Shown here in pieces: positions 18,487 through 39,975 of a stretch of 64,000 nt of DNA (position 1 is its first letter; every line of letters begins with the position of its first letter). Origin of the DNA: Acidobacteriota bacterium (GTDB taxonomy: Bacteria; Acidobacteriota; Polarisedimenticolia; J045); assembly GCA_046331425.1 (NCBI GenBank), contig JAXLQU010000002.1, positions 6,398 through 70,397 on the forward strand, written 5' to 3'. The notes under the pieces are model-generated. The model searched no databases. It saw nothing but the letters and a program-made list of their open reading frames with translations, and was not told where the DNA came from. The position numbers and the translations under genes were made by a program.

Positions 18487-18600
18487 TTTTATCAAAAGCG
18501 CCTCACCAAATGCGCCCCACCAAGAGCGCCTCACCAAGAGCGCCCCACCCAAATGCGCCTCACCAAATGCGCCTCACCAAATGCGCCTCACAAAAATCCA
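18487..18600. repeat. Tandem approx. 14-15-nt repeat (GCGCCYCACCAARWG), about 7-8 copies, in a divergent intergenic region
   Basis: gcgcctcaccaaatgcgccccaccaagagcgcctcaccaagagcgccccacccaaatgcgcctcaccaaatgcgcctcaccaaatgcgcctcac read directly from the sequence. Confidence 0.7.
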
Positions 18601-18876
18601 CGTCACCAACAGCGTCGCTCCCCAGCCAGGCCTTCCGTTGCGGCGCCGCCCGATCAACTGGCCAGGGATCGCGGGCGAGCACGTTCGCGAGTTGCCCCGT
18701 GGTCACCCACCCCTCCTCGGGTCGGATCGGCGCCCACGCTCTAGACAACGGTTTGCCGGGCTCGATTCCCCACCCATCGACAAACTCACTCGCGACGTTC
18801 CCGGCTTGACGGAGGTAAAGCGTCGATCCCTGGGGCGAAGGGTAGGCTTGCCATCTGTCCAACGGGAGGTTTCACG

Positions 18877-27271: not shown

Positions 27272-29008
27272 ATGGCCACAGCTTCTGTCTCGAACCCGCT
27301 ACTGCCCGTCCGAATGCTGAATGAGTTCGCGTACTGCCCACGGCTCTTCTACCTGATGCACGTCGAGGGCCTCTGGGCCGACAACGAGTACACCGAGGAA
27401 GGGCGCAACGTGCATCGTCGGCTGGATCGCGCCGTCGACGGCGTGCTCGACGCACCGGTCAAACGGCGATCCAAGGCAGAGACCGCGGAGGCAGCGCCCG
27501 CCGCCGATCTAGCAACCGAAGGAGATGAAGAGCCCAAGATCGCTCGGAGCGTTTCTCTGGGAAGCGAGCGACTCGGAATCACCGGAAAGCTCGACCTTGT
27601 CGCCGTCGATGCCGGTGAGGCCGTGCCGGTGGACACGAAACGCGGCCCGGTGCCTGAGAACCCGGAGCGCAGTTGGGAGCCGGACCGCATCCAGATCATG
27701 GCTCAGGCACTGCTGCTTCGAGAACACGGCTTCAGTTGTAAGCGTGGCGTGCTGTACTACGCCGGCTCTCGGCGGCGAGTTGACGTTCCGCTGACACCCG
27801 AACTCGAGGCGCGAACGCTGAGCATCATCGAGGCTGCACGTACGGCAACGTACTCGCGCTCGCTGCCACCGCCACTGGTCGACAGCAAGAAGTGCCCTGG
27901 TTGCTCGCTCGTCGGGATCTGCCTGCCAGACGAGACCAACCTGCTGCGCAGCGTGCCGGCTGATCCCGCCGCTCCCGAAGTTCGCCGCATGTACCCCGCG
28001 CGTGCTGAGGCTCGGCCGCTGTATGTTCAGGAGCACGGTGCCACTGTCGGCAAGAGCGGCGAGAACATCATCGTTCGAAAGGAAGGGCAGAAACTCGCTG
28101 ACGTGAAGTTGAAGGACCTGGCCGAGCTCGTGATCTGCGGCAACGTCACCGTGAGCGAGCCCGCAATACACACGCTTTGCGAAGCCGGCGTCCCGATCGT
28201 TCACCTGAGTGGCGGGAATTGGTTCTACGGAATCACCAACGGGATTCAACTGCGCAATGCCTCCGACCGCGCCGCACAGTTCTCTGCTGCTGCCGATCCT
28301 GAGCGCTGCGAACGAATCGCCAAGGCGTTCGTTGCCGCGAAGATCACGAATCAACGAACAATGCTGCGACGAAACGGTGAAGGGATCCCCGAGAGCGTTT
28401 TCGCTGACTTGAAGCGCGTGGCAGACCAGTTGGATTCGTCGTCCACGCTGGGCGGAGTGCTTGGCGTGGAAGGCGCCGCGGCCGCGATCTATTTCGGGCA
28501 CTTTGGGAAAATGCTCAGGCCTCGCGCACAGACCATGGCGTTCGACTTCGAGGCCCGCAACCGTCGGCCGCCGCTGGATCCTGTAAACGCGATGTTGTCA
28601 TTTGCCTACGCAATGCTCTCGAAGGAATGCACCGTTGCGCTGCTCGCGGCCGGCCTGGACCCGTATTGGGGATTGATGCATCAACCACGACACGGCCGGC
28701 CCGCGCTAGCACTTGATTTGATGGAGGAGTTTCGGCCGATCGTTGCCGACAGCGCGGTTGTGACCGTGATCAACACTGGCGTTGTAATTCCGGAAGACTT
28801 CGTGATTGGTGTAAACAGTTGCGCGCTGAAGCCGACGGGGCGCAAGCGATTCATCGAGGCGTATGAAGCACGCCTCGACCAAATGGTCACACACCCGATC
28901 TTCAACTACCGATGTACGTGGCGGCAGGTGATCCGGCTGCAAGCGCGACTACTTGGGCGCCACCTGCGAGGTGATCTCCCGGTGTACCCAGGGATGACAA
29001 CACGATGA
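27272..29008 (+). CDS. cas4-cas1: Cas4-Cas1 fusion protein
   Basis: N-terminal Cas4 (LNEFAYCPRLFYLMHVEG; C-terminal cysteine cluster KKCPGCSLVGICLP). C-terminal Cas1 (MAFDFEARNRRPPLDPVNAMLSFAYAMLSKE...GRPALALDLMEEFRPIVADS). This fusion is a hallmark of subtype I-G/I-U. Confidence 0.9.
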   Translation: MATASVSNPLLPVRMLNEFAYCPRLFYLMHVEGLWADNEYTEEGRNVHRRLDRAVDGVLDAPVKRRSKAETAEAAPAADLATEGDEEPKIARSVSLGSERLGITGKLDLVAVDAGEAVPVDTKRGPVPENPERSWEPDRIQIMAQALLLREHGFSCKRGVLYYAGSRRRVDVPLTPELEARTLSIIEAARTATYSRSLPPPLVDSKKCPGCSLVGICLPDETNLLRSVPADPAAPEVRRMYPARAEARPLYVQEHGATVGKSGENIIVRKEGQKLADVKLKDLAELVICGNVTVSEPAIHTLCEAGVPIVHLSGGNWFYGITNGIQLRNASDRAAQFSAAADPERCERIAKAFVAAKITNQRTMLRRNGEGIPESVFADLKRVADQLDSSSTLGGVLGVEGAAAAIYFGHFGKMLRPRAQTMAFDFEARNRRPPLDPVNAMLSFAYAMLSKECTVALLAAGLDPYWGLMHQPRHGRPALALDLMEEFRPIVADSAVVTVINTGVVIPEDFVIGVNSCALKPTGRKRFIEAYEARLDQMVTHPIFNYRCTWRQVIRLQARLLGRHLRGDLPVYPGMTTR

Positions 29009-29295
29009 GCCGGCGCCGATTTCTCGTGACGTACGACATCACCAAGGACAAGGTCCGTACTCAACTCTTCAAGCTGCTGCGGGGGTGGGGTGATCATGTC
29101 CAATACAGCGTGTTCATCTGCGAACTCACCGCACGCGAAAGAGCGCGGCTCGTGGGCCGCGTGAACGACATCGTGAACCATGACGAGGACCAGGTGCTGT
29201 TTGTCGACTTGGGTCTGGCGGCGGAGGAGCCGGCGACGGTCGTGGACAGCATTGGACGTGCGTACGAGCCTCCGAGTCAGGCGCTTGTTGTGTGA
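29005..29295 (+). CDS. cas2: Cas2
   Basis: MSRRRFLVTYDITKDKVRTQLFKLLRGWGDHVQYSVFICELT. ATGA overlap with cas4-cas1. Confidence 0.9.
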   Translation: MSRRRFLVTYDITKDKVRTQLFKLLRGWGDHVQYSVFICELTARERARLVGRVNDIVNHDEDQVLFVDLGLAAEEPATVVDSIGRAYEPPSQALVV

Positions 29296-29496
29296 GAATC
29301 ACGGCCCGGGAGGCGTTGCGAGCGGCCTGGTGGTGGAGAAACTCCAGGAGCCGCCCGAGGTCTTTGAAAACACGAGGTTTAGCGGGCGCTGGTGGCGAGT
29401 TGACTCCCCGGATCGGCGACCGCTGTTGTTCGGGCGGAAAGCCGCTCGAAAACTGAAGTACAAGTGCCAGAAAAAAGGCGGGTTACTATGCCCTCC
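29296..29496 (+). promoter_or_regulatory. CRISPR leader
   Basis: Non-coding stretch between cas2 and the first repeat, ending in the A-rich CCAGAAAAAAGGCGGGTTACTATGCCCTCC. The degenerate terminal repeat lies at the opposite end of the array. Confidence 0.5.
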
Positions 29497-31971
29497 ATCT
29501 CCGCGTTCGAAAGAACGCGGCCCCATTGAAGCCCCGTCCACATTCGCGTTGGATAAAGTCTGTGGCGCGGATCTCCGCGTTCGAAAGAACGCGGCCCCAT
29601 TGAAGCTAGGTACAGGTGGTAGTCGTCAGGCACGTTCCAGAATCTCCGCGTTCGAAAGAACGCGGCCCCATGAAGCAAGGCAAACTCGCTGCCGAACGCA
29701 ACCTCGAGGATCATCTCCGCGTTCGAAAGAACGCGGCCCCATTGAAGCGAGTCCTTCTGCGAGAAGCGTGGTGGAGCCCCAACCGGATCTCCGCGTTCGA
29801 AAGAACGCGGCCCATGAAGCGCCGCGACCCCCCACAGCGCTATGCCAGTTATGCCAACATCTCCGCGTTCGAAAGAACGCGGCCCCATTGAAGCGTCGGC
29901 TCCGGGCTGGACGCTGTGCGGAGCAACGGCAGATCTCCGCGTTCGAAGAGAACGCGGCCCCATTGAAGCACGTCGGAGAGGTCGGCAAAGACTCGACGGT
30001 GGTGTATCTCCGCGTTCGAAAGAACGCGGCCCCATTGAAGCGTCTTTCCGCTGGTCGCTGGCTTTCGTCGGCGTCTGGATCTCCGCGTTCGAAAGAACGC
30101 GGCCCCATTGAAGCCCTTCTTCCTTGGCGTCGTGGAGCGTCTCGGCGTCGATCTCCGCGTTCGAAAGAACGCGGCCCCATTGGCTTGATGAAGTTATACT
30201 CGCCCGTGGGATCTACCATGATCTCCGCGTTCGAAAGAACGCGGCCCCATTGAAGCGCATCACCGGACCACGTTGGCAGCGGCAGCTGATCTCCGCGTTC
30301 GAAAGAACGCGGCCCCATTGAAGCTGCAAGGGAGCAGCTCTCACTTGAGTTCAGATGAGTATCTCCGCGTTCGAAAGAACGCGTACTAGCCGACCGGAAT
30401 GCCGGCTATGCAGTGAGTTCTTTCCGATCTCCGCGTTCGAAAGAACGCGGCCCCATTGAAGCCGGCCAGAACTCGACATCGGCGCCGCGCTCGACGCCGA
30501 TCTCCGCGTTCGAAAGAACGCGGCCCCATTGAAGCGGCCCTGCGCCCGGTGAACGCCTGCCAACGGCGGACCATCTCCGCGTTCGAAAGAACGCGCGCCC
30601 CATGCTACTCTTCCTTCGACTCAATCTTCCGCGCCTGACTCGATCTCCGCGTTCGAAAGAACGCGGCCCCATTGAAGCCCGCGATTGGAATGTCCGCTGC
30701 GGTTGGTTCGGCCGATCTCCGCGTTCGAAAGAACGCGGCCCCATTGAAGCGACCGAGAGTTACGCGGTTTTGCGTCGCGGCGCGGTGATCTCCGCGTTCG
30801 AAAGAACGCGGCCCCATTGAAGCTCCTTGTGACGCTCGAGCGCGACGTCGGTCTCGCTATCTCCGCGTTCGAAAGAACGCGGCCCCATTGAAGCTCGCAG
30901 GCCGCCGCCGCCGCAGTCGGACCGGGGACATCTCCGCGTTCGAAAGAACGCGGCCCCATTGAAGCGCGTTGCCGCCGTAGAGCAGGTTGGTGACACCGAG
31001 ATCTCCGCGTTCGAAAGAACGCGGCGGCTCGGAGTCGAGTGATCCACGTACGGATCTCGCTGAACATCTCCGCGTTCGAAAGAACGCGGCCCCATTGAAG
31101 CCCTCCGACGCGGACACCACGAGTCACCGGCGCACCCATCTCCGCGTTCGAAAGAACGCGGCCCCATGAAGCGGACGGTCCCTTCCGAGCAGCAGAAGTG
31201 CTCAGCGACATCTCCGCGTTCGAAAGAACGCGGCCCCATTGAAGCGTCCGGACCATCGATCGTCCGATGGTCGCTCGCGCGATCTCCGCGTTCGAAAGAA
31301 CGCGGCCCCATTGAAGCTGCAACAGGCCAGCGCTCGACGACAAGCCATCGCCAGATCTCCGCGTTCGAAGAACGCGGCCCCATTGAAGCCGGTACTCGGC
31401 GGTGCTGCATACGTCACGGACAGTATCTCCGCGTTCGAAAGAACGCGGCCCCATTGAAGCGCCGCTCACCTGGGAGTGCCCATCGATCACTTCTTCAGAT
31501 CTCCGCGTTCGAAAGAACGCGGCCCCATTGAAGCGTATCGGTACAGGATCACCTCACGATGGAGCGGCGACATCTCCGCGTTCGAAAGAACGCGGCCCCA
31601 TTGAAGCACTGTGCTCCACGCCATCGGATCACCTCACGCCGAGATCTCCGCGTTCGAAAGAACGCGGCCCCATTGAAGCTTCCGTTCTCGTCATGGATAA
31701 TCCTTTGTAACCGTCGATCTCCGCGTTCGAAAGAACGCGGCCCCATTGAAGCCCGCTGATTGCGCGCGCGCTGATACGCCTGCGCGTGTATCTCCGCGTT
31801 CGAAAGAACGCGGCCCCATTGAAGCACCGCTCCGCCGCCGCGGGATGCAGTGCCGTTCCCGGTATCTCCGCGTTCGAAAGAACGCGGCCCCATTGAAGCG
31901 CGCTCTAGATCGTCCATGACCAGAGCGTAGTCCTCATCTCCGCGTTCGAAAGAACGCGGGTGCCGTCTCTT
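29497..31971 (+). CRISPR. CRISPR array: 35 repeats (36 nt), 34 spacers (33-47 nt, mostly 35-38)
   Basis: Consensus ATCTCCGCGTTCGAAAGAACGCGGCCCCATTGAAGC with internal perfect 8-bp stem CCGCGTTC/GAACGCGG plus GAAA loop. 3' end ATTGAAGC resembles the I-C/I-U ATTGAAAC handle. Repeat starts at 29497, 29571, 29642 ... 31936. Terminal repeat (31936) diverges after 24 nt. Repeats at 30361, 30583 and 31001 lack the 3' third. Others carry 1-nt indels. Confidence 0.95.
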
Positions 31972-32168
31972 CCTTGCCATCAGTTCCTCCCTCAGGGGAG
32001 GGACTCTTCACGATTAGAGTGTCAACTCAAACAAGGGGGACGGGGTACCACAGGCCATACAGGCTCTGCTGCAATCATCACTTCCAAGCTCAATCGCAAG
32101 CACCAAGACGAACCGACCTGACCCGGAGCCGTAGCCAAAACGAGAAGACCGTCGCTTCGCTCCGACAG

Positions 32169-32202
32169 GTGATCACGATCAAACGGGAGCAGTGATCACG
32201 AT
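32169..32202 (+). promoter_or_regulatory. Direct repeat GTGATCACGAT x2 (each with TGATCA palindrome) upstream of the HTH/cas3 unit; candidate operator
   Basis: GTGATCACGATcaaacgggagcaGTGATCACGAT, 27-60 nt upstream of the ATG at 32229, in a locally GC-poor segment. Confidence 0.3.
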
Positions 32203-32228
32203 GACCGGAATCGCCATCGTGAGTTAGA

Positions 32229-32423
32229 ATGCCTGCGGAAATCCTGACCATCGAGGAGGTCGCCACGTTACTTAGACCCGCAGCGAAGTCCATCGATGCC
32301 TTTGTCCAGGCCGGCAAGGTTGCGGCGTTCAAGCTGTGGGGGCACTAGCGCATCAGACGCACCGAACTTGATCGGTGGGTAGACGCGCAGCCGCGCGATA
32401 GGGGGGGTGGTCGTGGCGAGTAA
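32229..32423 (+). pseudogene. Excisionase/MerR-like HTH mini-ORF interrupted by an in-frame amber codon at the conserved Trp position (or a readthrough gene)
   Basis: MPAEILTIEEVATLLRPAAKSIDAFVQAGKVAAFKLWGH-TAG-RIRRTELDRWVDAQPRD. Matches the HTH_17 pattern (LTxxEVAxLL...GxWRIRRxDLDxW) with TAG where W is expected. The ORF ends overlapping the cas3 start. Confidence 0.45.
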
Positions 32424-35400
32424 GAAGGCGCCAGCTTCTGTCTCGGATGCGGGTGACCCGCAGGCGGTGGACTGGCTCCGGGGTGCGCTCGGACTCAATG
32501 CAACGCAAGCGCCGTTTCCATGGCAGGTCGAGCTGCTTCGACGTTTTCTCCAAGACGAAGCTGTTTCTTCTATCGACATCCCTACGGGCCTCGGAAAGAC
32601 GGCCGTCATGGCCGTGTGGCTCGTCGCGCGAACACTCGGAGCAGCGCTGCCGCGACGCCTCGTCTACGTCGTCGATCGTCGGGCAGTTGTCGATCAAGCG
32701 ACCGAAGTCGCCGAAGCACTCAGCGCCTGGGTGGCGAAAGAGCCCCGTGTCGCAGACGCCCTGGGTCTTGACGATCGCCCTCTGCCCATCTCGACGCTGC
32801 GTGGCCAACATGTCGACAACCGCGCATGGCTTGAGGACCCATCGTCGCCCGCGATCATCGTCGGCACCGTCGACATGGTGGGCTCTCGGCTTCTCTTCTC
32901 GGGCTACGGCGTCTCCCCGAAGATGCGTCCCTACCATGCAGGGCTCCTCGGCGCGGACGCGCTCGTCGTTCTCGACGAGGCCCACTTGGTCCCTGCGTTC
33001 GAAGATCTCCTTCGACAGATCGAGCGTGGAACCGACACGTTCGGGCCGAAGGAACTCTCCCTTCGCGCGCTGATCCCGCCGTTCAGACTACTTCCGCTCT
33101 CGGCCACAGGACGCCAGACCGACGCTACGACGCTGACTCTCTCCGACGACGATCGAAGAGACGAGATCGTCAAGCAGCGTCTGACCGCGAAGAAGAAGCT
33201 GAGCACCGTAGATATCACCAACGCCGCGGAAGCCACCGCCACCCCGGCTGACGTCAAGAATGCTGACGATGCAGACGAGGCGACCAGGAGGAACGAGGGC
33301 CACAAGCTTGCCGGTGTTATCGCTAGGCAGGCATGGGAGTTGACGAAGCAAGGCTCGGCACGGGTGCGTTGCCTCGTGTTCTGTAACGCGCGCAAGGACG
33401 CAACCGTTGTCGCTGCCGAACTACGCAACCTGGCGAAGTCGGCCACCGGGCTCGAGCCCACCATCGAGCTCTTCGTCGGCGGACGCCGCGTGAAAGAGCG
33501 CACCCAAGCGCGCGATGCTCTCGCCCGACTCGGCTTCCTCGCGGGCAAAGCGGTGAACTTGGAGCGCTCGGCCTTTCTGATCGCAACGTCGGCCGGAGAG
33601 GTCGGAGTGGACCTCGACGCAGACCACATGGTCTGTGACCTCGTCGCGTGGGAGCGCATGGTCCAGCGCCTCGGCCGGGTGAACCGGCGAGGTGATGGAG
33701 ATGCGAATGTCATCGTCGTGGTGGACAGCGAGCCCGCGCCCTCTGACACCACGACGAAGGCCCTCGAGAAGAGGGAGGTTTCCAACGACGCGAAGGGACA
33801 ACTCGATGAGTTGACGAAGGAGCTTAACGCACTCCAGGATGCGAAAGCCTCCGTTCCGAAAGGCCAGAAGAAATCTGCCGACGCCAAAGCTGCCGAGGAG
33901 AAGCGCAGGCAAGCCGAGAAGGACCTGAAGAAGTCGATTTCCGCGTGTCAGAAGCGCATCAATGCTTTCAAGGACGCGGATGCGAAGGTCGTGGCGCGCC
34001 ATGAGGCCGCGGCTGCGCAACATCACGCCCTTCGCGCGTTGCTCACGGCGGTCGGAGAGAAGGGTAGCCTGAGCCCTGACGCCCTACTTACGCTGCGTGA
34101 CCGCCTAGACCTCGCCGATGCACTGCGCGCCGCAACGACGGTCGAGCCGCTTCGGCCCGAGCTGACGCGCCCGCTGGTCGAGGCGTGGTCGATGACTTCG
34201 CTTGACGAGCACCCGGGACGGCCTGCGGTCGATCCGTGGTTGCGCGGCTTTCGTCCGAACGATCTGCCACAGACCACGGTTGTCTGGCGACGACATCTGC
34301 CCGTGCGGGCTGACGGCTCCTTCGACGTGAAGGCGGCAAAGCAATTCTTCGAGGCTGCACCTCCTCATACGAGCGAGCAACTCGAGACTGAGACGCACCT
34401 CGTGCTCGAGTGGCTCATCAAACGCGCAGCGGCCACTAGCAAGGCCCCGGGCGATGTGGTGTTGCAGGGTGCGCAGAGGGTCGTCGCGATCGCCCTCGGA
34501 GGGCGCGGCGAGCCGAAAGGGTGGCGCACCCTCAGCGAGATCACCTTCGCGAAGAGCCAAGGCAAAAACGAGAACAATGAGGCTAAGAAGGCTCGCGAGC
34601 AACGCGTGAAGGAACTCGAAAAGCTCTTGGTCGGAGCGACGCTAATCATCGACGCGCGCCTTGGAGGACTCACTGACGGCCTCCTGAGCGAACAGACCGA
34701 CACGACCGCGGAAGCCTCGGACGATGGCTCGTCGATGTGGCTCGGTCGCCCTGACGTTGCGGGTGTGCCCGTGACGGGGTTCCGCATCCGTGTATTGGGT
34801 GCTAACGAAGAGGACCAGTCAGCGTGGCGAACGACGCCAGGAACCGGATGGGGACGACGCCATTTGTTTGTTACGAACGTAGCGGACGGTGAGCCATCTG
34901 CGGCGCTAGTGATCGAGGGGTGGTCGGGCGACGCCGCGACGGAAGATGAGCGCGCTGAAGCAAACCGTCCACAGCAACTCAATGAGCACCAGAGCTGGGC
35001 TGAAGGCTGCGCGAGGCAGATAGCCCAGCGTCTTGGCATCGAGAAGGATCCTTGCGCGGATCTCATCGCTTTCGCAGCTCGTCATCATGACGAAGGAAAG
35101 CGCGCCGCGTGGTGGCAGCGTGCGTTCAAGGCCCCCATCGATGGTCGCCCTTACGCGAAGACGAAGGGGCCGATCGACTTCGACCTCCTCGACGGCTATC
35201 GACACGAGTTGGGCTCGCTGCCGTACGTGGAGGCCCACGACGACTTCAAGGCGCTCGGCGCGGACGACCAAGATTTCGTTCTCCATCTCGTAGCGGCGCA
35301 TCATGGTTTCGCCAGACCCATGATCGGCACGAGCGGCTGCGACGATGCGCCACCGTCGATTGTCGAGGAGCGTGCGCGGGCGGTCGCGCTTCGATTCGCG

Positions 35401-35523
35401 AGGCTCTCGAGGCGATGGGGGCCGTGGGGGCTCGCATGGTGGGAGGCGCTGCTCCGCGCGGCAGACCAGACCGCGTCGCGCCGCAACCAGCGGACAGCGA
35501 CAGCGCGGAAGGATCTGCCGTGA
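32407..35523 (+). CDS. cas3: Cas3 helicase with C-terminal HD nuclease domain (I-G/I-U architecture)
   Basis: GTG start. Walker A IPTGLGKTAV. DEAH box VVLDEAHL. C-terminal HD motifs AARHHDEGK ... HLVAAHHGF. Confidence 0.9.
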   Translation: MVVASKKAPASVSDAGDPQAVDWLRGALGLNATQAPFPWQVELLRRFLQDEAVSSIDIPTGLGKTAVMAVWLVARTLGAALPRRLVYVVDRRAVVDQATEVAEALSAWVAKEPRVADALGLDDRPLPISTLRGQHVDNRAWLEDPSSPAIIVGTVDMVGSRLLFSGYGVSPKMRPYHAGLLGADALVVLDEAHLVPAFEDLLRQIERGTDTFGPKELSLRALIPPFRLLPLSATGRQTDATTLTLSDDDRRDEIVKQRLTAKKKLSTVDITNAAEATATPADVKNADDADEATRRNEGHKLAGVIARQAWELTKQGSARVRCLVFCNARKDATVVAAELRNLAKSATGLEPTIELFVGGRRVKERTQARDALARLGFLAGKAVNLERSAFLIATSAGEVGVDLDADHMVCDLVAWERMVQRLGRVNRRGDGDANVIVVVDSEPAPSDTTTKALEKREVSNDAKGQLDELTKELNALQDAKASVPKGQKKSADAKAAEEKRRQAEKDLKKSISACQKRINAFKDADAKVVARHEAAAAQHHALRALLTAVGEKGSLSPDALLTLRDRLDLADALRAATTVEPLRPELTRPLVEAWSMTSLDEHPGRPAVDPWLRGFRPNDLPQTTVVWRRHLPVRADGSFDVKAAKQFFEAAPPHTSEQLETETHLVLEWLIKRAAATSKAPGDVVLQGAQRVVAIALGGRGEPKGWRTLSEITFAKSQGKNENNEAKKAREQRVKELEKLLVGATLIIDARLGGLTDGLLSEQTDTTAEASDDGSSMWLGRPDVAGVPVTGFRIRVLGANEEDQSAWRTTPGTGWGRRHLFVTNVADGEPSAALVIEGWSGDAATEDERAEANRPQQLNEHQSWAEGCARQIAQRLGIEKDPCADLIAFAARHHDEGKRAAWWQRAFKAPIDGRPYAKTKGPIDFDLLDGYRHELGSLPYVEAHDDFKALGADDQDFVLHLVAAHHGFARPMIGTSGCDDAPPSIVEERARAVALRFARLSRRWGPWGLAWWEALLRAADQTASRRNQRTATARKDLP

Positions 35524-36497
35524 TGACACATACGACTGCATCCATCCCCGTCGACCTCAAGAGCCCGGGTCAGGTGCTCGCCTGCGTGGGCTTCATCGAG
35601 GCGGCAGAAGTACTGCTGGGCGGGGTCGAGGCGCATTTTGATTGGAGCGACGCGCAAGCGAAGTTCGTGCTTCGCGCTGACGGTAACGAAAACCCGTTCG
35701 AGGTCGTCCTTGAGTTCTTGTCGAAGGCGAAGATCAGCGAACTGACGCCCGTTGGCTACGTCGAGGGTGGTGCAGCCGACGGTGACGACAGTGAAGAGGA
35801 AGACGCCACGCCCAGCGAACCTGAAGACGGTGATGAGTCCGACGACGACCCGGGCGAGGTGCTAGGGCGCGTCACGACCCCAGCATTTCCTTTGGGCGAA
35901 GGCGACCGGAATGCACTTCCCGTCCAGCTCGTGCACGAAGGACGTTGCCTCACCGTCAGTCATTGGGCCGACGGCTCGTCGCGGGACGACTTCAAGCTTT
36001 ACTCGGGCAACCGCTCGGCCAATCGCATCGCTACGCAGATGCTCCAAGGTGTGCGTGCGAAGCTCAAGAAGAACCAGTCGAGCGGTGACCTCAAAAATCG
36101 AGGGTTGCAGCAGCTTTGGCGGGAGAACCGAGCGGCGCTCCTGAAGGCACCGTTCGACTTGGTCACGCCGATGGGCGGTAGCTTCAACTTCGATCCACGC
36201 GGCGCCTGGACCGCGATCGACGCGGGCTACTCACCAAACACGCAGAAAGACGGCATCGCGGCCTCGCCGGTTGTCGAGATCCTGGCAGCGATCGGGCTCG
36301 AACACGCGCGCCCTGACCAATACGAGACTCGCGAGGTTCGTTACGCAGTCTGGGGACAGCCGTTGCCGCCAATGCTCGCGCGCGCTGCGCTTGCAGGCGC
36401 CGGTGTGAAGCTGTCGGTGCGCCGGTTCCAGTTCGAGCTCGATCTCTCCGGCAAGAACAAAGTCACGACGTTCGCACAAGAGGAGACCCAACCATGA
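35523..36497 (+). CDS. Putative Cascade subunit 1 (about 324 aa; Csb/Cas7- or Cas11/Cas8u-like, unassigned), acidic low-complexity insert
   Basis: ATG overlaps the cas3 stop (TGATG). Start MTHTTASIPVDLKSPGQVLACVGFIEAAEVL. Acidic tract GGAADGDDSEEEDATPSEPEDGDESDDDPGE. G-rich segment PMGGSFNFDPRGAW. No confident family motif recognised. Confidence 0.5.
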   Translation: MTHTTASIPVDLKSPGQVLACVGFIEAAEVLLGGVEAHFDWSDAQAKFVLRADGNENPFEVVLEFLSKAKISELTPVGYVEGGAADGDDSEEEDATPSEPEDGDESDDDPGEVLGRVTTPAFPLGEGDRNALPVQLVHEGRCLTVSHWADGSSRDDFKLYSGNRSANRIATQMLQGVRAKLKKNQSSGDLKNRGLQQLWRENRAALLKAPFDLVTPMGGSFNFDPRGAWTAIDAGYSPNTQKDGIAASPVVEILAAIGLEHARPDQYETREVRYAVWGQPLPPMLARAALAGAGVKLSVRRFQFELDLSGKNKVTTFAQEETQP

Positions 36498-37786
36498 CAT
36501 CGAAGGCCGCAGAAACCACCACTCCGTCGTTGAGCGAGGAGACCACCAAGCTCTTCGATTCTTGGCTCGCCAGCGAGGGGCCAGTTGCTCTCCGTCTGCG
36601 CCAGAAGCTCCGCCCCGTCGAGGCTGATGAGAGCGGTCGCGGCGTCATCTTCCCGCCGACCTATGCCGACATCGGCTACAACATCGATACGCTCGCGGAC
36701 GGAACGCGCGTCGCGACGATCGACACGGTCGGCTCGCAGGCTAACCGTCTGGAGCCGATCTTCAAGAAGGCAGGTGAGGGGCAGCCCGAGAATCCGCTTG
36801 CGAGCCTCGTTCCGCAGATCGAGATCGTCTTGCACAAGGCCGGTGGCAAGAAGGGAAAGAAGAAGGAGACCGACGCGGCGGGCGAGGCCGACGCAACTGA
36901 GCACGTCGAGAAGCGTTCGCTCCTCGACCTCGCGCACCGCAGTGCGGACGCCGTCGTGCTCGCGAGCCCGACGCTTGCGCCTGAGATCGCCAAGGCATTC
37001 GAGGCACTGCGCAGCAAGGGGAACGCGGCTCCGCTCGCAGCCATCGCGCCGACCTCGCTGGTCTTTGGTGTGTGGGATTCGCGTGGCGGTACCGGCGAGA
37101 AACGACCTCGCTTGGTTCGCTCGATCATCCGCGCCTGGGACGTCGAGGTCCTTCACAGCGCCGCACAGTTCAACTCGGTGTGGAAGGCCCTGAGTGAGGA
37201 GCAGCAGAAGGAGCTCGCTGACGAGGAGAAGAAGAAGGGGAAGCTGGAGCTGTCGGCGGTCGGCCTGAAGGACGCTCCATCCACCTTTCGAAAGACCGAC
37301 AAGATCCCGCAGTTCGTCGCGGGGGCCCCGAACCCAGAAGCGCGCGTACTCGGTGGTGTCCTCGCGAAGGGGGCCATCGAACGCGACGTCACGATCAACC
37401 TCGTCGCGCTCCGTGGCATCCGTGGCAAGGACGCCGCCGAGACGACCGAGGTTCAGAAGTACCTATTGGGTCTCGCCCTTCTAGCGGCCACGGTCGACCT
37501 TGAGTTGTTCCTCCGCGAGGGATGCCTGCTCCGTTACGCGGACCAGGCGGACAAGTGGACGGCGGTACCACGCCGCGGTGAGCCTGGCGACGCAGACCAG
37601 GTGACGCTCCCAAAGGATCTCGTCGCCTATGCGACGGCGGCAGCCGCACCGTTCAAGGCGAAGTGGCCTGATGGGCTGAAGAAGGACGGCGCCCCCGTCC
37701 TCGAGCATGAGTTCGACATAAAGAAGGCAAAGGAGCTGCTCGCGAAGAAGAAGGACGACGAGACACCGGCGACCCCCCCGGCATGA
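36494..37786 (+). CDS. Putative Cascade subunit 2 (430 aa; Cas7-like backbone candidate), Lys-rich insert
   Basis: ATGA overlap with the upstream gene. TIDTVGSQANRLEPIF and SLVFGVWDSRGGTGEKRPRLVRSIIRAWD recall Cas7 RNA-binding loops. K-rich insert GGKKGKKKETD. Assignment tentative. Confidence 0.5.
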   Translation: MTSKAAETTTPSLSEETTKLFDSWLASEGPVALRLRQKLRPVEADESGRGVIFPPTYADIGYNIDTLADGTRVATIDTVGSQANRLEPIFKKAGEGQPENPLASLVPQIEIVLHKAGGKKGKKKETDAAGEADATEHVEKRSLLDLAHRSADAVVLASPTLAPEIAKAFEALRSKGNAAPLAAIAPTSLVFGVWDSRGGTGEKRPRLVRSIIRAWDVEVLHSAAQFNSVWKALSEEQQKELADEEKKKGKLELSAVGLKDAPSTFRKTDKIPQFVAGAPNPEARVLGGVLAKGAIERDVTINLVALRGIRGKDAAETTEVQKYLLGLALLAATVDLELFLREGCLLRYADQADKWTAVPRRGEPGDADQVTLPKDLVAYATAAAAPFKAKWPDGLKKDGAPVLEHEFDIKKAKELLAKKKDDETPATPPA

Positions 37787-39975
37787 CGCACTACCTGACC
37801 ATTAATGTGCGCGCCCATGAGGGGCGGTACCACGGAGCAGGCGACGAGCTGCCGTCGCCATTTCGCTTGTTTCAGTCGCTCATAGCGGGCGCCGGGATCA
37901 GCGGACCGCTCGACGATCATACGAAGAGGGCGCTCGTCTGGCTCGAAGGGCTCCCGGATGCCCCGCTCGTCGCGTCACCGCGTCTCGCGCGAGGTCAGAC
38001 GGTCACGATGTTCATGCCGAACAACGACCTTGACAAGTTCGGCGGCGACGTTCGGAACATCGCGAAGACGCGTGGTGCGCAGAAGGTCTGGAGGCCGCGG
38101 TATTTCGACGCGTCGGTGCCATGGATCTACGCGTGGCCCTTCGCCAACGTTGACGAGGGAGACACGCACGCCAAGAAGATCTGCGCGCTCGCCGACAAGC
38201 TCTACCAACTTGGGCGGGGTGTCGACATGGCCTGGGCCTGGGGTGACCTTCTCAACGAAGCCGCGCTCGAAGCGCGGCTCGCAGAGTACAACGGCGTCGT
38301 TCGGCGACCGAGCGTGGGCGATGGCCTTAAGCTCGCATGTCCGAGCGAGGGTTCGTTCGAGAGTCTCGAACGCCGATATCACTCTCCGAGATTCCGGACC
38401 GAGAGCGGCCAGCGCGTCTTCGTCCAAAAGCCGAAGCCGAGTTATCGACAGATCACTTACGAGAGCCCGCCTGTTCGCCACGTCTTCGAGCTTCGAACTT
38501 CAACTGACTCGGAGCGTCGTGTTGCGTGGCCCCTTGTGGGCGCCTCGGCGCTCGTCGTAGCGGCACGTGAAGCGGCGCGCGCACGACTGTGCAGCGCCAT
38601 GCCGAATCGGATCCATGATGTGGAGCTACACCTCGTGGGTCGTAAGCCCGATGGTACGAACGCGGTGCCTGCTGAGAGTCGCGTGCGGATCATCCCAATC
38701 CCATCCATCGGGATGCACTATGCCGACCGCGCGATTCGGCGTCTCCTCGTCGAGATCCCTGCGGCGTGCCCGCTTCGCAGCGAGGATGTTCGCTGGGCGT
38801 TCTCGGGTGCGGAGCTCTTCGATCCAGACACCGGCGAGGTGAAGGACGTGCTGCTGTCGCCATCAGACGAGGACGACATGCTCCGGCACTACGGCGTTGG
38901 CGCCGGGGCGCGAGTGTTCCGGTCTGTCACGCCAGTGGTACTCCCCGAGGAGGGCAAGCGTCGGCGCATCGAGCCTACTCGAAGGCTCTCGGAGGCCAAG
39001 CTTGGCCTCGAGCGCGTCGTAGAGATTTCGGGAGCGAGAGCGGCAGTCGTTCAAGCGCTCCGTCACGCGGGCGTGAGCGCTCCAGCGGAGAGCGTTCGCC
39101 TGCAGCGCGAGCCTTTCGAGGCGGCCGGCTCTCGCGTCGAGCCGTTTGCCGAGGGAACACGGTTTGAGAAGGAGCGCCTCTGGCACGTCGAGATTACGTT
39201 CGGCGTCCCGGTCGAGGGCCCGCTGTTGCTCGGTGATGGGCGCTTTCTCGGGCTAGGGCTCATGGCACCAGTGAGAGATGTTGTGCCGGGGGTACATGCA
39301 CTCGTAATCACTGAGGGCCTCGCCGGTCACGCCGAGACGCTCGATGTTGTACGAGCGCTGCGCCGTGCGGTCATGGCGAGAGTGCAGTCAACTCTCGGCA
39401 CGCGCGAGCGGCTCGCACCGTTCTTCAGCGGTCACGCAGAGGACGGCGCCCCTGTTCGGCGGTCTCGAACTTCGCATCTCTCGTTCGCCTTCGAGCCGGA
39501 CTCGCGAAGGCTACTCATCCTCGCTCCTCATGTGGTCGAGCGACGCGCGCCGATGTCTGATGAGCTCGACCACCTCCGCACTCTTGATGCTGCGCTCGTA
39601 GGGTTCTGCGAGCTGCACGCGGGGTACGCTGGAGTCTTCTCCGTTTCCCCTGCTGCGATCGAAAAACTCCAGGACTCGCTCTTCGGGCATTCGCGCGTGT
39701 GGAGGACCATCACGCCATACGTCGTCACGCGCCATGCGAAGGGCGGCGCAGCGACGGAGGCACTTGCAGCCGATGTCCGCGCGGAGTGCCGTCGCCTCGG
39801 ACTGCCCGAGCCCAGAGTGGAATCAAGAAACGTTCGGGGCGCATCTGGGATTGGACTCACGGGCTACGCGACGCTGTTTTTCGAGCGGCGCGTCGCGGGA
39901 CCCCTAGTGCTCGGACGAACTCGGTATCTCGGAGGCGGGTTCTTCCGCCCCGACGAGGAACCCAACCAACCATGA
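37783..39975 (+). CDS. Putative Cascade large subunit (730 aa): two RAMP-like G-rich loops, so a Cas5-Cas6 (Csb1-like) fusion and/or Cas8u (Csx17-like)
   Basis: ATGA overlap. N-terminus MTHYLTINVRAHEGRYHGAGDELPSPFRLFQSL (RAMP-like first strand). G-rich loops GDGRFLGLGLMAPV (about aa 480) and TRYLGGGFF at the extreme C-terminus, as in Cas5/Cas6. Confidence 0.5.
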   Translation: MTHYLTINVRAHEGRYHGAGDELPSPFRLFQSLIAGAGISGPLDDHTKRALVWLEGLPDAPLVASPRLARGQTVTMFMPNNDLDKFGGDVRNIAKTRGAQKVWRPRYFDASVPWIYAWPFANVDEGDTHAKKICALADKLYQLGRGVDMAWAWGDLLNEAALEARLAEYNGVVRRPSVGDGLKLACPSEGSFESLERRYHSPRFRTESGQRVFVQKPKPSYRQITYESPPVRHVFELRTSTDSERRVAWPLVGASALVVAAREAARARLCSAMPNRIHDVELHLVGRKPDGTNAVPAESRVRIIPIPSIGMHYADRAIRRLLVEIPAACPLRSEDVRWAFSGAELFDPDTGEVKDVLLSPSDEDDMLRHYGVGAGARVFRSVTPVVLPEEGKRRRIEPTRRLSEAKLGLERVVEISGARAAVVQALRHAGVSAPAESVRLQREPFEAAGSRVEPFAEGTRFEKERLWHVEITFGVPVEGPLLLGDGRFLGLGLMAPVRDVVPGVHALVITEGLAGHAETLDVVRALRRAVMARVQSTLGTRERLAPFFSGHAEDGAPVRRSRTSHLSFAFEPDSRRLLILAPHVVERRAPMSDELDHLRTLDAALVGFCELHAGYAGVFSVSPAAIEKLQDSLFGHSRVWRTITPYVVTRHAKGGAATEALAADVRAECRRLGLPEPRVESRNVRGASGIGLTGYATLFFERRVAGPLVLGRTRYLGGGFFRPDEEPNQP

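What the first reader, a model, noticed from the sequence alone, without database searches (positions are those of the whole stretch)
32169..32423. Excisionase-type HTH mini-gene with an in-frame TAG at the invariant Trp codon, overlapping the cas3 start and preceded by TGATCA direct repeats
The ORF reads MPAEILTIEEVATLLRPAAKSIDAFVQAGKVAAFKLWGH*RIRRTELDRWVDAQPRD. The TAG sits exactly where HTH_17 proteins have the conserved Trp (TGG to TAG). The frame then continues through the canonical RIRRxDLDxW and ends inside the cas3 GTG start region. Upstream lie two GTGATCACGAT direct repeats. This could be a recently inactivated cas regulator, a readthrough-regulated gene, or a sequencing error. Either way it marks a candidate transcriptional control point for cas3 and the effector genes.
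Basis: seen in the sequence. Interest (0 to 1): 0.55.

Follow-up and report, generated by a model that had tools for sequence, protein, structure and literature searches.

The report
Dead regulator gene before cas3
The mini-gene in front of cas3 is a real but broken copy of a small DNA-binding protein that, in related bacteria, sits at the head of several kinds of anti-phage operons; here it has decayed while the CRISPR system kept working, so it is a fossil and not an active switch.

Summary
A 39-codon ORF (32229-32348) ends in TAG, and the same frame runs on to TAA at 32421-32423, inside the cas3 start. The two halves match one HTH_17 profile collinearly. Orthologues upstream of closely related type I-G cas3 genes have TGG exactly where this copy has TAG. 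The TAG is not a one-off error: three assemblies representing two haplotypes carry it. TAG is also an ordinary stop codon in this genome.

The gene is not a dedicated cas regulator. Intact relatives, usually over 85% identical to each other, score at the threshold of NCBIfam MAD1 (the MADS HTH protein). They head type I R-M/Septu-like, ABC-3C-like and type I-G cas3 operons, often beside a serine recombinase module.

The window copy differs from that consensus by 25 nonsynonymous changes besides the stop. It has also lost the conserved promoter and 5'UTR. Four other cas3 loci carry independently decayed copies. Leader-end spacers differ between strains that share the TAG, so spacer acquisition continued after the loss.

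The GTGATCACGAT repeats are real but are absent from every orthologue, so their role as an operator is unproven.

Verdict: a pseudogene of a known regulator family, of modest interest.

The parts
32229..32348 (+). 5' part of the HTH_17 pseudogene: 39 codons plus the TAG stop (helix-turn-helix and first wing strand)
   Evidence: Family HMM positions 1-38, E 1.9e-11. Alone it scores only 14.8 bits against Pfam HTH_17, cut-off 27. Gene callers called it as a 39-aa ORF in two other assemblies.
32346..32348 (+). TAG in place of the invariant Trp codon TGG (single G->A change)
   Evidence: Aligned codon is TGG in L108, L085, L010 and L083. W40 is present in 98% of 120 family members. It lies in the second predicted wing strand of the AF2 model.
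32349..32423 (+). 3' part of the pseudogene in the same frame (RIRRTELDRWVDAQPRDRGGGRGE, then TAA); it holds the G-rich stretch just before the cas3 start
   Evidence: HMM positions 41-63, E 2.6e-9. This 3' segment is the piece kept in all decayed copies: L004, L010, L083, L088.
32169..32179 (+). GTGATCACGAT direct repeat, copy 1 (contains the 8-bp palindrome GTGATCAC)
   Evidence: Absent from all related loci.
32192..32202 (+). GTGATCACGAT direct repeat, copy 2; it sits where intact relatives have the -10 box and transcript start
   Evidence: (alignment A3).
32203..32212 (+). GACCGGAATC, a vestige of the family's second direct repeat (identical 10-mer in L141)
   Evidence: alignment A3; direct-repeat scan.
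32201..32230 (+). Only sigma-70-like match in the region (ATGACC-18-TAGAAT); the -10 overlaps the ATG, so a transcript from it could not encode the HTH
   Evidence: This is a consensus match only; function is not shown.
32407..35523 (+). cas3 (helicase with C-terminal HD domain), type I-G/I-U
   Evidence: Pfam Cas3-like_C_2, DEAD, Cas3_HD at residues 865-971. 75-84% identical orthologues.
35523..36497 (+). cas8u-like large-subunit gene (likely ATG 35523, overlapping the cas3 stop as TGATG)
   Evidence: No Pfam hit.
36494..37786 (+). cas7 (GSU0053 family)
   Evidence: Pfam PF09617, 109 bits.
37783..39975 (+). cas5/cas6 fusion (GSU0054 family)
   Evidence: Pfam PF09609, 45.9 bits.
29497..31971 (+). 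CRISPR array: 36-nt repeat ATCTCCGCGTTCGAAAGAACGCGGCCCCATTGAAGC, about 33 repeats plus a degenerate terminal repeat at 31936-31971. It is transcribed towards the pseudogene.
   Evidence: Rfam CRISPR-DR16, weak hit.
27272..29295 (+). cas4-cas1 fusion (27272-29008) and cas2 (29005-29295)
   Evidence: Pfam Cas_Cas1 298 bits, Cas_Cas4 65 bits, CRISPR_Cas2 65 bits.

Best explanation
The mini-gene is a pseudogene of a MAD1-like HTH_17 (excisionase-family, winged-helix) protein.

In intact relatives this 65-82-aa gene is the first cistron of a defence operon. It is transcribed from a conserved sigma-70 promoter (TTGAGC-17/18-TAGAAT, TACAAT or TAGGAT). A pair of ~18-nt direct repeats 20 nt apart lies there, with the first repeat covering the -10 box. 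The stop codon of the gene overlaps the start of the first cargo gene: hsdM, cas3 or an ABC-3C component. By inference the protein binds those repeats and autoregulates the operon. The whole cassette often lies at the junction between a DUF2924-serine recombinase-ORF131 backbone (or an integrase) and variable defence cargo.

In this window a type I-G interference module arrived with such a cassette. The cassette then lost function through three kinds of change:
- TGG->TAG at the wing Trp, which removes the second wing strand and the C-terminal helix.
- About 25 further amino-acid changes at otherwise near-invariant positions.
- Replacement or shortening of the promoter and 5'UTR.

Only the 3' end stays well preserved. 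By inference, this is because it carries the cas3 ribosome-binding region and start. cas3 is now presumably expressed by read-through from the CRISPR array or from a weak local promoter. This last step is inferred and not shown.
For: Shown:
- HTH_17 match across the stop.
- TGG in orthologues.
- TAG present in three assemblies and two haplotypes.
- TAG is a normal stop: 4 of 26 long ORFs.
- Intact orthologues L108 and L085 lie upstream of cas3 genes whose N-terminal 400 aa are 84% and 75% identical to the window's.
- Family identity: NCBIfam NF047737 MAD1 scores 77-82 bits (cut-off 80) for intact members whatever their cargo, against 44.9 bits for the restored window copy. Pfam HTH_17 scores 56-70 bits against 38. 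PADLOC mad1 hits L108 only.
- Cargo diversity with stop/start overlap: hsdM-hsdS-PtuA/B-like (L134, L135, L137-L140, L143), cas3-cas8u-GSU0053 (L136, L141, L142, L145, L108, L085), ABC-3C-like (L144).
- The recombinase module lies upstream in L143, L134, L002, L001 and L108 and is absent from the window.
- Relaxed constraint, counted against family consensus codons 1-56: window 25 nonsynonymous to 17 synonymous; 11 intact copies pooled 54 to 118 (Fisher p 0.0012); L004 25 to 10 (p 1.6e-5). Pairwise dN is 0.20-0.27 for the window against 0.03-0.08 between intact copies.
- Independent decay in other cas3 loci: L004 (ATG->ATT, both Trp lost) and L010, L083, L088 (5' truncations with different breakpoints, HMM positions 36, 38 and 43).
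- The conserved promoter and 5'UTR survive in the window only as vestiges.
- The rest of the locus is not decaying. All cas ORFs are full length. The window and L081 share 27 older spacers but have 5 and 2 private leader-end spacers.
- From the literature: deleting mad1 in P. aeruginosa MADS 'had limited effect' on defence (bioRxiv 10.1101/2023.03.30.534895). This fits a dispensable regulator.
Against: - The window-branch omega is about 0.5, not 1, and rests on only 56 codons. Part of the divergence may have occurred under selection, for example as a changed DNA specificity, before a recent nonsense mutation.
- The two exact 11-mers upstream are oddly well preserved for a long-dead control region.
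- No transcription, translation or DNA-binding data exist for any member of this family apart from the mad1 deletion phenotype.
- The regulatory role of the intact protein is inferred from gene position, the repeats and analogy.
- The pooled intact sequences in the Fisher test are not phylogenetically independent.
Confidence: 0.8

Rival explanations
1. A divergent but until recently functional regulator with its own operator. On this reading the window lineage evolved a new DNA specificity. The changed recognition helix (T21S, V22I, Y23D, M25F, A26V) would be matched by the new GTGATCACGAT direct repeats. The TAG would then be a very recent single hit, so the control region would still be meaningful, for example bound by a paralogue encoded elsewhere.
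For: The two 11-mers are exact and the extended pair matches 14/18 at 23-nt spacing (p about 0.003). This mirrors the direct-repeat architecture of intact loci (13-14/18 at 20 nt in L134, L136, L137, L141). It also mirrors RptR, which binds direct repeats with palindromic cores over the -10 box (PMC12255303). Pairwise dN/dS is still below 1 (0.23-0.35).
Against: No intact protein sharing the window-specific residues was found. The word-indexed search of 5.8 billion clusters returned only the 39-aa ORF itself. The search of 1.84 billion cluster representatives with the 39-aa fragment was uninformative. The restored protein scores far lower on the generic HTH_17 model (38 bits) than even a 33%-identical intact homologue (L002, 60 bits), so generally conserved positions are hit (Y23D, P32A). 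The family promoter's -10 box is gone and the 5'UTR is shortened. There is no second MAD1-like gene in the 64-kb window. The repeats could equally be a 23-nt tandem duplication.
Confidence: 0.12
2. Programmed TAG readthrough or recoding yields a low level of full-length regulator, so the stop is itself a regulatory device.
For: The frame stays open for 24 more codons and keeps the RIRRTELDRW motif. The nucleotide after TAG is C. From general knowledge of stop-codon context, this is not a strong termination context.
Against: TAG terminates 4 of 26 long ORFs in the window, and no gene here needs TAG read as sense. No tRNA, suppressor or otherwise, lies in the window. All 120 listed family members and the intact orthologues encode Trp, none a stop. 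Other lineages lost the gene by unrelated lesions, which points to dispensability and not to a recoding device. The open downstream frame is explained by its overlap with the cas3 start region and by the small number of codons.
Confidence: 0.04
3. A sequencing or assembly error: the true sequence is TGG and the gene is intact.
For: The window's CRISPR array differs from L081 by 11 small indels, so at least one assembly is imperfect in repeats.
Against: An identical TAG is present in three assemblies (window, GCA_964611105.1, Logan SRR16481184). These fall into two haplotypes, distinguished by the SNP at 33225 and by spacer content. The change is a substitution and not an indel. Even with W restored, the protein is an outlier of its family.
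Confidence: 0.02

Closest known systems
MAD1, the HTH protein encoded by the first gene of the Methylation-Associated Defence System (NCBIfam NF047737; PADLOC mad1; Maestri et al., bioRxiv 10.1101/2023.03.30.534895)
   Same: Intact orthologues of the window gene score 77-82 bits on the MAD1 equivalog model, whose cut-off is 80. They are a small HTH_17 protein, the first gene of a defence operon, and apparently dispensable for defence itself.
   Different: The downstream genes here are type I-G cas genes and not mad2-mad8. The hsdM operons headed by the closest relatives are also not bona fide MADS (MADS2 57 bits against a cut-off of 720). The window copy scores only 44.9 bits and is interrupted by a stop.
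Excisionase-family / MerR-like winged-helix DNA-binding proteins (Pfam HTH_17 PF12728, TIGR01764; e.g. Xis, TorI, AlpA, BldC, RdfS)
   Same: Sequence membership is clear for the intact relatives (56-70 bits HTH_17; 57 bits TIGR01764). Relatives of this gene have a direct-repeat pair at their promoter and often sit beside a recombinase or integrase.
   Different: No role in excision has been shown. The gene is translationally linked to defence cargo and not to int/xis functions. Similarity to solved structures is weak (8c3t AlpA E 0.0085; BldC 6ama E 0.12) and the fold search was not significant.
RptR, first-ORF repressor of a type I R-M/DarTG2 defence island in E. coli (PMC12255303)
   Same: [quoted passage not shown] It represses its own promoter through direct repeats with a palindromic core that overlap the -10 box, 31-58 bp before its start codon. 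The window repeats (palindrome GTGATCAC, 37-60 bp before the ATG) have the same layout.
   Different: The fold is unrelated: RptR is an all-alpha four-helix homodimer. Its motif is different (TAGCTA). There is no homology, so this is an analogy only.
Other defence-system regulators: C (controller) proteins of type II R-M, and BrxR/CapW WYL-domain repressors (PMC9122601)
   Same: They are promiscuous regulators found next to many different defence systems. They are thought to keep expression within limits or to de-repress on infection.
   Different: The DNA-binding families differ (XRE-type HTH; WYL-wHTH). BrxR/CapW have ligand-sensing domains, whereas the MAD1-like protein is a bare 65-aa DNA-binding domain.

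Membership tests
Pfam HTH_17 (PF12728) / TIGR01764 excisionase-family DNA-binding domain | Whole-protein score above the curated cut-off (27 bits; 28.8 bits) | tested here: not met
   The ORF as encoded (39 aa) scores 14.8 bits. Only the hypothetical W-restored 64-aa product passes: 38.1 bits HTH_17 and 30.0 bits TIGR01764. Homology is certain; functional membership is not.
Pfam HTH_17 (PF12728) / TIGR01764 excisionase-family DNA-binding domain | Conserved Trp in the wing (G-x-x-W-R-I/F) and complete wing plus C-terminal helix | tested here: not met
   TAG replaces the Trp codon. AF2 model of intact P0003: strands 33-36 and 39-42, helix 44-53. The truncation removes strand 2 and the helix.
MAD1-like HTH (NCBIfam NF047737 antiphage_MADS1, equivalog) | Score of at least 80 bits on the equivalog model | tested here: not met
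   Window copy restored: 44.9 bits. Intact relatives: L108 81.0, P0017 81.0, P0071 81.7, P0086 80.6, P0036 77.1, L002 69.6.
MAD1-like HTH (NCBIfam NF047737 antiphage_MADS1, equivalog) | First gene of a defence operon, with its stop overlapping or abutting the first cargo gene | tested here: met
   The frame ends at TAA 32421-32423, 11-17 nt inside cas3. The layout is the same in L108, L085, L134-L145.
MAD1-like HTH (NCBIfam NF047737 antiphage_MADS1, equivalog) | Followed by mad2-mad8 (mad6-8 are mandatory in the authors' model) | tested here: not met
   The downstream genes are cas3, cas8u-like, GSU0053 and GSU0054. The requirement is stated in bioRxiv 10.1101/2023.03.30.534895.
MAD1-like HTH cassette (as defined here from intact loci) | Conserved promoter TTGAGC-17/18-TA(G/C)(A/G)AT, ~65-nt 5'UTR and a 20-nt-spaced direct-repeat pair over the -10 box | tested here: not met
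   Alignment A3: the window keeps only GACCGGAATC and GAGTTAGAATG vestiges. The -10 box is replaced and the 5'UTR shortened. Its own repeat pair has a different sequence and 23-nt spacing.
Type I-G (formerly I-U) CRISPR-Cas | Cas3 with C-terminal HD domain, GSU0053 (Cas7), GSU0054 (Cas5/6 fusion), Cas4-Cas1 fusion, Cas2 and an array | tested here: met
   Pfam hits; array. The gene order is permuted: adaptation genes and array lie upstream of cas3.
Recombination directionality factor / excisionase (functional class) | Partner recombinase adjacent, and control of excision | tested here: not met
   No recombinase, ORF131 or DUF2924 homologue was found anywhere in the 64-kb window. Relatives do have them (L143, L134, L002, L001, L108; tyrosine integrase in L137). 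Excision activity cannot be tested with these tools.
RptR family | All-alpha four-helix dimer, TAGCTA operator | tested here: not met
   RptR's fold and operator are taken from PMC12255303; RptR's sequence was not compared here. The gene here is instead placed in the HTH_17 winged-helix family and there is no TAGCTA motif. The resemblance is an analogy of mechanism only.
Stop-codon recoding / programmed readthrough | In-frame stop conserved among homologues, or TAG reassigned in the genome | tested here: not met
   All intact homologues encode Trp. TAG ends 4 of 26 long ORFs. Readthrough efficiency itself cannot be tested here.

The most novel reading that the evidence does not exclude
The MAD1-like HTH_17 gene, with its promoter and direct-repeat operator, is a portable 'expression head'. 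It sits at the backbone-cargo junction of a family of serine-recombinase (and integrase) islands. These islands exchange whole defence modules: type I-G CRISPR interference genes, type I R-M with Septu-like genes, ABC-3C-like systems, and MADS. Once a module settles in a chromosome the head is repeatedly lost, with at least five independent decays among cas3-linked copies. That loss could be adaptive de-repression of cas3/Cascade and not neutral decay. The window would then be a snapshot of a CRISPR interference module freed from its imported repressor.
Probability: 0.4. Interest if true: 0.55.

Novelty: new member of a known kind. Interest (0 to 1): 0.33.

Why it matters
For this window the practical message concerns annotation. 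The 39-aa ORF should be marked as a pseudogene remnant and should not be treated as a live cas3 switch.

The wider point is more useful. One very conserved 65-aa HTH_17 protein, with its promoter, heads at least four kinds of defence operon in several phyla, including type I-G CRISPR-Cas. I found no paper in the searchable library that reports this link to type I-G. Little is known about how type I-G systems, or defence islands in general, are regulated. This cassette is a concrete, testable candidate regulator. Its repeated loss in cas3 loci offers a natural experiment on whether such regulators are costs or safeguards. Cultured hosts exist for the hsdM-linked version: Corallococcus sp. RDP092CA and Pseudorhodoferax sp. 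Leaf265.

Tried and rejected
- Word-indexed homologue search with the W-restored window protein returned only the 39-aa ORF itself. It gave no close intact variant. It was useful only to show that the ORF is called in other assemblies.
- Exhaustive phmmer of the 39-aa fragment against 1.84 billion representatives returned only itself. The query is too short for that database size, so the result is uninformative.
- AF2 plus Foldseek against the PDB found nothing significant. The best hit was BldC at E 1.3, TM 0.49-0.59. The model (pLDDT 84.7) fuses residues 8-28 into one helix, so the helix-turn-helix geometry is unreliable. I use it only for the position of the wing strands.
- The sequence search of the PDB gave only weak hits: AlpA 8c3t at E 0.0085, BldC and RdfS at E >= 0.1.
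- blastn and tblastx of 31940-32240 against all fetched loci showed no homology upstream of the remnant. Rfam found only the CRISPR repeat.
- tRNA scan of the window: none, so nothing can be said about suppressors.
- Literature searches for HTH_17 or excisionase-like regulators of type I-G/I-U cas3 found nothing relevant.
- RptR was considered as a homologue and rejected because its fold is different.
- I considered that the TAGAAT at the ATG marks a 65-nt deletion of the 5'UTR by microhomology with the family's -10 box. The flanks do not align well enough to claim this.
- I considered reassignment of TAG and rejected it.
Full report
**1. What is in the sequence**

The window carries a complete type I-G (formerly I-U) CRISPR-Cas locus on the + strand:
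- a cas4-cas1 fusion (27272-29008) and cas2 (29005-29295);
- a CRISPR array of about 33 copies of a 36-nt repeat (29497-31971, last repeat degenerate);
- cas3 with a C-terminal HD domain (32407-35523);
- a cas8u-like gene (about 35523-36497), cas7/GSU0053 (36494-37786) and cas5-6/GSU0054 (37783-39975).

Between the array and cas3 lies the reported ORF. It runs from ATG 32229 for 39 codons to TAG 32346-32348. The same frame continues for 24 more codons to TAA 32421-32423. That is 11-17 nt inside cas3, whose start is GTG 32407 or 32413.

With Trp in place of the stop, the product hits Pfam HTH_17 at 38.1 bits (cut-off 27) across residues 6-54. A family HMM built later matches the two halves collinearly, at E 1.9e-11 and 2.6e-9. 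The two exact GTGATCACGAT copies are at 32169-32179 and 32192-32202.

**2. Is the TAG real, and is it a stop?**

The exact 39-aa ORF is also encoded in NCBI MAG GCA_964611105.1 (L081) and in a Logan assembly of run SRR16481184 (L082). The window is not a copy of either. It differs from both at position 33225. Its array has five leader-end spacers that L081 lacks, L081 has two that the window lacks, and 27 older spacers are shared in order. At least two haplotypes therefore carry the TAG, and a one-off error is very unlikely.

TAG ends 4 of 26 long non-overlapping ORFs in the window, and the long cas ORFs are uninterrupted. TAG is thus an ordinary stop here. No tRNA gene lies in the window.

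**3. Orthologous loci**

I fetched 131 loci encoding relatives of this Cas3 from genomes and metagenomes. I scanned their six-frame translations with tblastn, phmmer and a family HMM.

- *Intact copies.* Two loci whose Cas3 N-terminal 400 aa are 84% and 75% identical to the window's have an intact 65-aa gene in the same place. Its stop overlaps cas3. L108 reads MPDEVLTIKEVAALLKLAEKTVYAMAQAGEIPAFKIRGQWRIRRTELDQWIDAQPRGGDGGGRGE, and L085 is similar. At the aligned codon they read TGG where the window reads TAG; L010 and L083 also have TGG. L002 has a more divergent intact HTH_17 there.
- *Decayed copies.* Four other loci carry copies with different lesions. L004 has lost the start (ATG->ATT) and both Trp residues, and scores 17 bits on HTH_17. 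L010, L083 and L088 keep only the last 20-30 codons, with different breakpoints (HMM positions 36, 38 and 43).
- *No copy.* About 14 further loci with Cas3 at least 70% identical have no trace of the gene.

The gene is therefore ancestral to part of this cas3 clade and has been lost repeatedly and independently. The piece always retained is the 3' end, which contains the G-rich stretch and the cas3 start. I infer that it is kept for cas3 translation.

**4. What the gene is**

A search with the intact L108 protein found 438 homologues. The best 120 are all at least 82% identical to it, and most columns are at least 95% invariant. The carriers include Corallococcus, Thermoanaerobaculia, Burkholderiaceae, Aquabacterium and Pseudorhodoferax.

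NCBIfam places these proteins at the threshold of NF047737, 'methylation-associated defense system HTH protein MAD1' (77-82 bits; cut-off 80). PADLOC's mad1 model also hits.

Ten look-ups of genomic context show the gene always first in an operon. Its stop overlaps the next gene in most loci and lies just upstream of it in L141 and L142. The cargo differs:
- hsdM-hsdS followed by PtuA/PtuB-like genes and RhuM (L134, L135, L137-L140, L143). These are not bona fide MADS, since MADS2 scores 57 bits against a cut-off of 720.
- Type I-G cas3-cas8u-GSU0053 (L136, L141, L142, L145).
- An ABC-3C-like system with CTD12 and MC8 domains (L144).

Upstream neighbours also vary: glmS, a toxin-antitoxin pair, a tyrosine integrase. 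A recurrent module is DUF2924 - large serine recombinase - a 131-135-aa ORF. At 74-94% protein identity this module precedes both hsdM cargo (L143, L134) and cas3 cargo (L002, L108). It occurs more distantly in L001, and as a remnant in L085.

The gene is thus not a dedicated cas regulator. It is a promiscuous head gene of defence cargo, often at the backbone-cargo junction of integrative elements. The MADS authors treated MAD1 as one of the 'widespread regulators' and found that deleting it 'had limited effect' on defence (bioRxiv 10.1101/2023.03.30.534895).

**5. How the intact cassette probably works**

Alignment of the 160 nt upstream of ten intact or near-intact copies shows a conserved sigma-70-type promoter (TTGAGC, 17-18 nt, then TAGAAT, TACAAT or TAGGAT). 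Its -35 element overlaps the stop of the upstream ORF. A conserved ~65-nt 5'UTR follows.

Within it, L134, L136, L137 and L141 have a pair of direct repeats matching 13-14 of 18 positions, 20 nt apart. An example is CTTGGAATACAATGGCGT / CTTGGAGTCTCATGCCGT. The first repeat covers the -10 box (3-7 of 1000 shuffles).

[quoted passage not shown] It represses its promoter through direct repeats over the -10 box (PMC12255303).

I therefore infer that the MAD1-like protein autoregulates its operon from these repeats. No binding or expression data exist, so this step is inference. An AF2 model of an intact member (pLDDT 84.7) places W40 in the second strand of a beta-hairpin wing, followed by a C-terminal helix. 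The TAG removes both. Structural comparison with the PDB was not significant.

**6. State of the window copy**

Besides the stop, the window copy departs from the near-invariant family consensus at about 20 of 56 core positions. Examples are L17P, Y23D, P32A and R37W.

Even with Trp restored it scores 38 bits on HTH_17. Intact members score 56-70 bits, and the 33%-identical L002 protein scores 60. On the MAD1 model it scores 44.9 bits against about 80.

| Sequence (codons 1-56, against family consensus codons) | Nonsynonymous | Synonymous | Fisher p vs pooled intact |
|---|---|---|---|
| Window | 25 | 17 | 0.0012 |
| L004 | 25 | 10 | 1.6e-5 |
| Eleven intact copies, pooled | 54 | 118 | - |

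The pooled sequences are not phylogenetically independent, so the p-values are indicative.

Pairwise dN to intact copies is 0.20-0.27, against 0.03-0.08 among intact copies at similar dS. The implied omega on the window branch is about 0.5. That indicates relaxed but not fully neutral evolution, consistent with a period of constraint followed by decay.

Upstream, the family promoter is gone. Only GACCGGAATC (32203-32212, identical to part of the second repeat in L141) and the bases next to the ATG still align, and the 5'UTR is about 30 nt shorter. The second GTGATCACGAT copy sits where relatives have the -10 box. The only sigma-70-like match (ATGACC-18-TAGAAT, 32201-32230) has its -10 on the ATG, so it could not express the HTH.

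No recombinase module and no second MAD1-like gene occur anywhere in the 64 kb.

By contrast the cas genes are intact. The two strains that share the TAG have acquired different leader-end spacers since they split. The CRISPR system stayed active without this gene.

**7. The GTGATCACGAT repeats**

The repeats are exact, each contains the palindrome GTGATCAC, and they lie 60 and 37 nt before the ATG. This layout is reminiscent of the RptR operators. Two of the three GTGATCAC sites in the window are these copies; about 1.5 sites are expected by chance.

However, pairs of at least 11 nt within 50 nt are not rare in this window: about five others against 1.6 expected. The motif is absent from all orthologous and family loci. 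A 23-nt tandem duplication would produce the same picture. Their function is open. I give about 0.12 to the reading that they were the operator of a diverged, recently killed regulator.

**8. Verdict**

The finding is a genuine pseudogene of a known small-regulator family (MAD1-like HTH_17). It was inactivated by TGG->TAG together with further decay and loss of its promoter. It sits at the head of an otherwise active type I-G interference operon.

It is neither a sequencing error nor a recoding site. It is probably no longer a control point.

What is mildly new is the context. The same highly conserved head cassette serves type I-G CRISPR-Cas, type I R-M/Septu-like and ABC-3C-like cargo, often next to a serine recombinase module, and it has been lost at least five times in cas3 loci. 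I found no report of this link to type I-G in the searchable literature.

Interest is 0.33. Novelty: a new (dead) member of a known kind.

Noticed in passing
window 29497-30200, compared with L081 315-1100: The window and NCBI MAG GCA_964611105.1 share 27 older spacers in the same order. They differ at the leader (cas2-proximal) end, with 5 private spacers in the window and 2 in L081. This is the signature of continued polarised spacer acquisition after the strains diverged.
   Followed up: partly
window 29637-31389 (several repeats) and 30325-30420: Eight of the 33 full repeats differ from the consensus, mostly by 1-nt indels (e.g. CCCCATGAAGC, TTCGAAGAACGCG). One internal repeat is truncated (ATCTCCGCGTTCGAAAGAACGCGTACTAGCC...). 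The window and L081 differ by 11 small indels, all within the array. These may be real repeat decay or assembly errors in repeats.
   Followed up: no
window 35109-35522: The ORF of the cas8u-like gene extends 414 nt upstream into the 3' end of cas3 in another frame. This extension is also open and alignable in 15 related loci (tblastn 64-82% identity over residues 2-462). It is probably a side effect of high G+C and conserved cas3 DNA, because ATG 35523 with a GGAAGGA motif upstream looks like the real start. A conserved overlapping frame was not excluded.
   Followed up: partly
L143 2471-5201; L134 4384-6207; L002 1224-3944; L108 2217-3014; L001 43-2365: A conserved module, DUF2924 - large serine recombinase - 131-135-aa ORF - MAD1-like HTH, precedes different defence cargo (hsdM operons or type I-G cas3) at up to 94% protein identity. 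This suggests a family of integrative elements that swap defence modules. In L002 the recombinase matches in three pieces and may be disrupted.
   Followed up: partly
L134 5915-6000; L137 5925-6000; L136 5925-6000; L141 5915-6000 (alignment A3): A conserved promoter and ~65-nt 5'UTR lie upstream of intact MAD1-like genes. They include a 20-nt-spaced direct-repeat pair whose first copy overlaps the -10 box. This is a candidate operator for the family and appears undescribed.
   Followed up: partly
L145 98-4786: Here the MAD1-like HTH gene lies between a 546-aa Cas3-like helicase ORF (no HD domain) and a full-length cas3. This may be a duplicated or split cas3, or a junction of two cassettes.
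   Followed up: no
L144 3873-6179: A MAD1-like HTH heads an operon with CTD12 and MC8 domains (components of ABC-3C conflict systems), followed by DUF2326 and RhuM. This is a fourth cargo type for the same regulator.
   Followed up: no
window 18493-18614: There is a tandem array of a 14-nt unit (CAAATGCGCCTCAC, about 7 copies; also readable as a 43-nt unit) between ORFs. It is unrelated to the finding and unexplained.
   Followed up: no
window 27272-39975: The gene order is permuted relative to the order I recall as usual for I-G loci (not checked here). The adaptation genes and array lie upstream of the interference genes, and the array's trailer end faces the HTH remnant and cas3. No terminator-like site was found on the + strand between the array and cas3, so read-through from the array into cas3 is possible.
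   Followed up: partly
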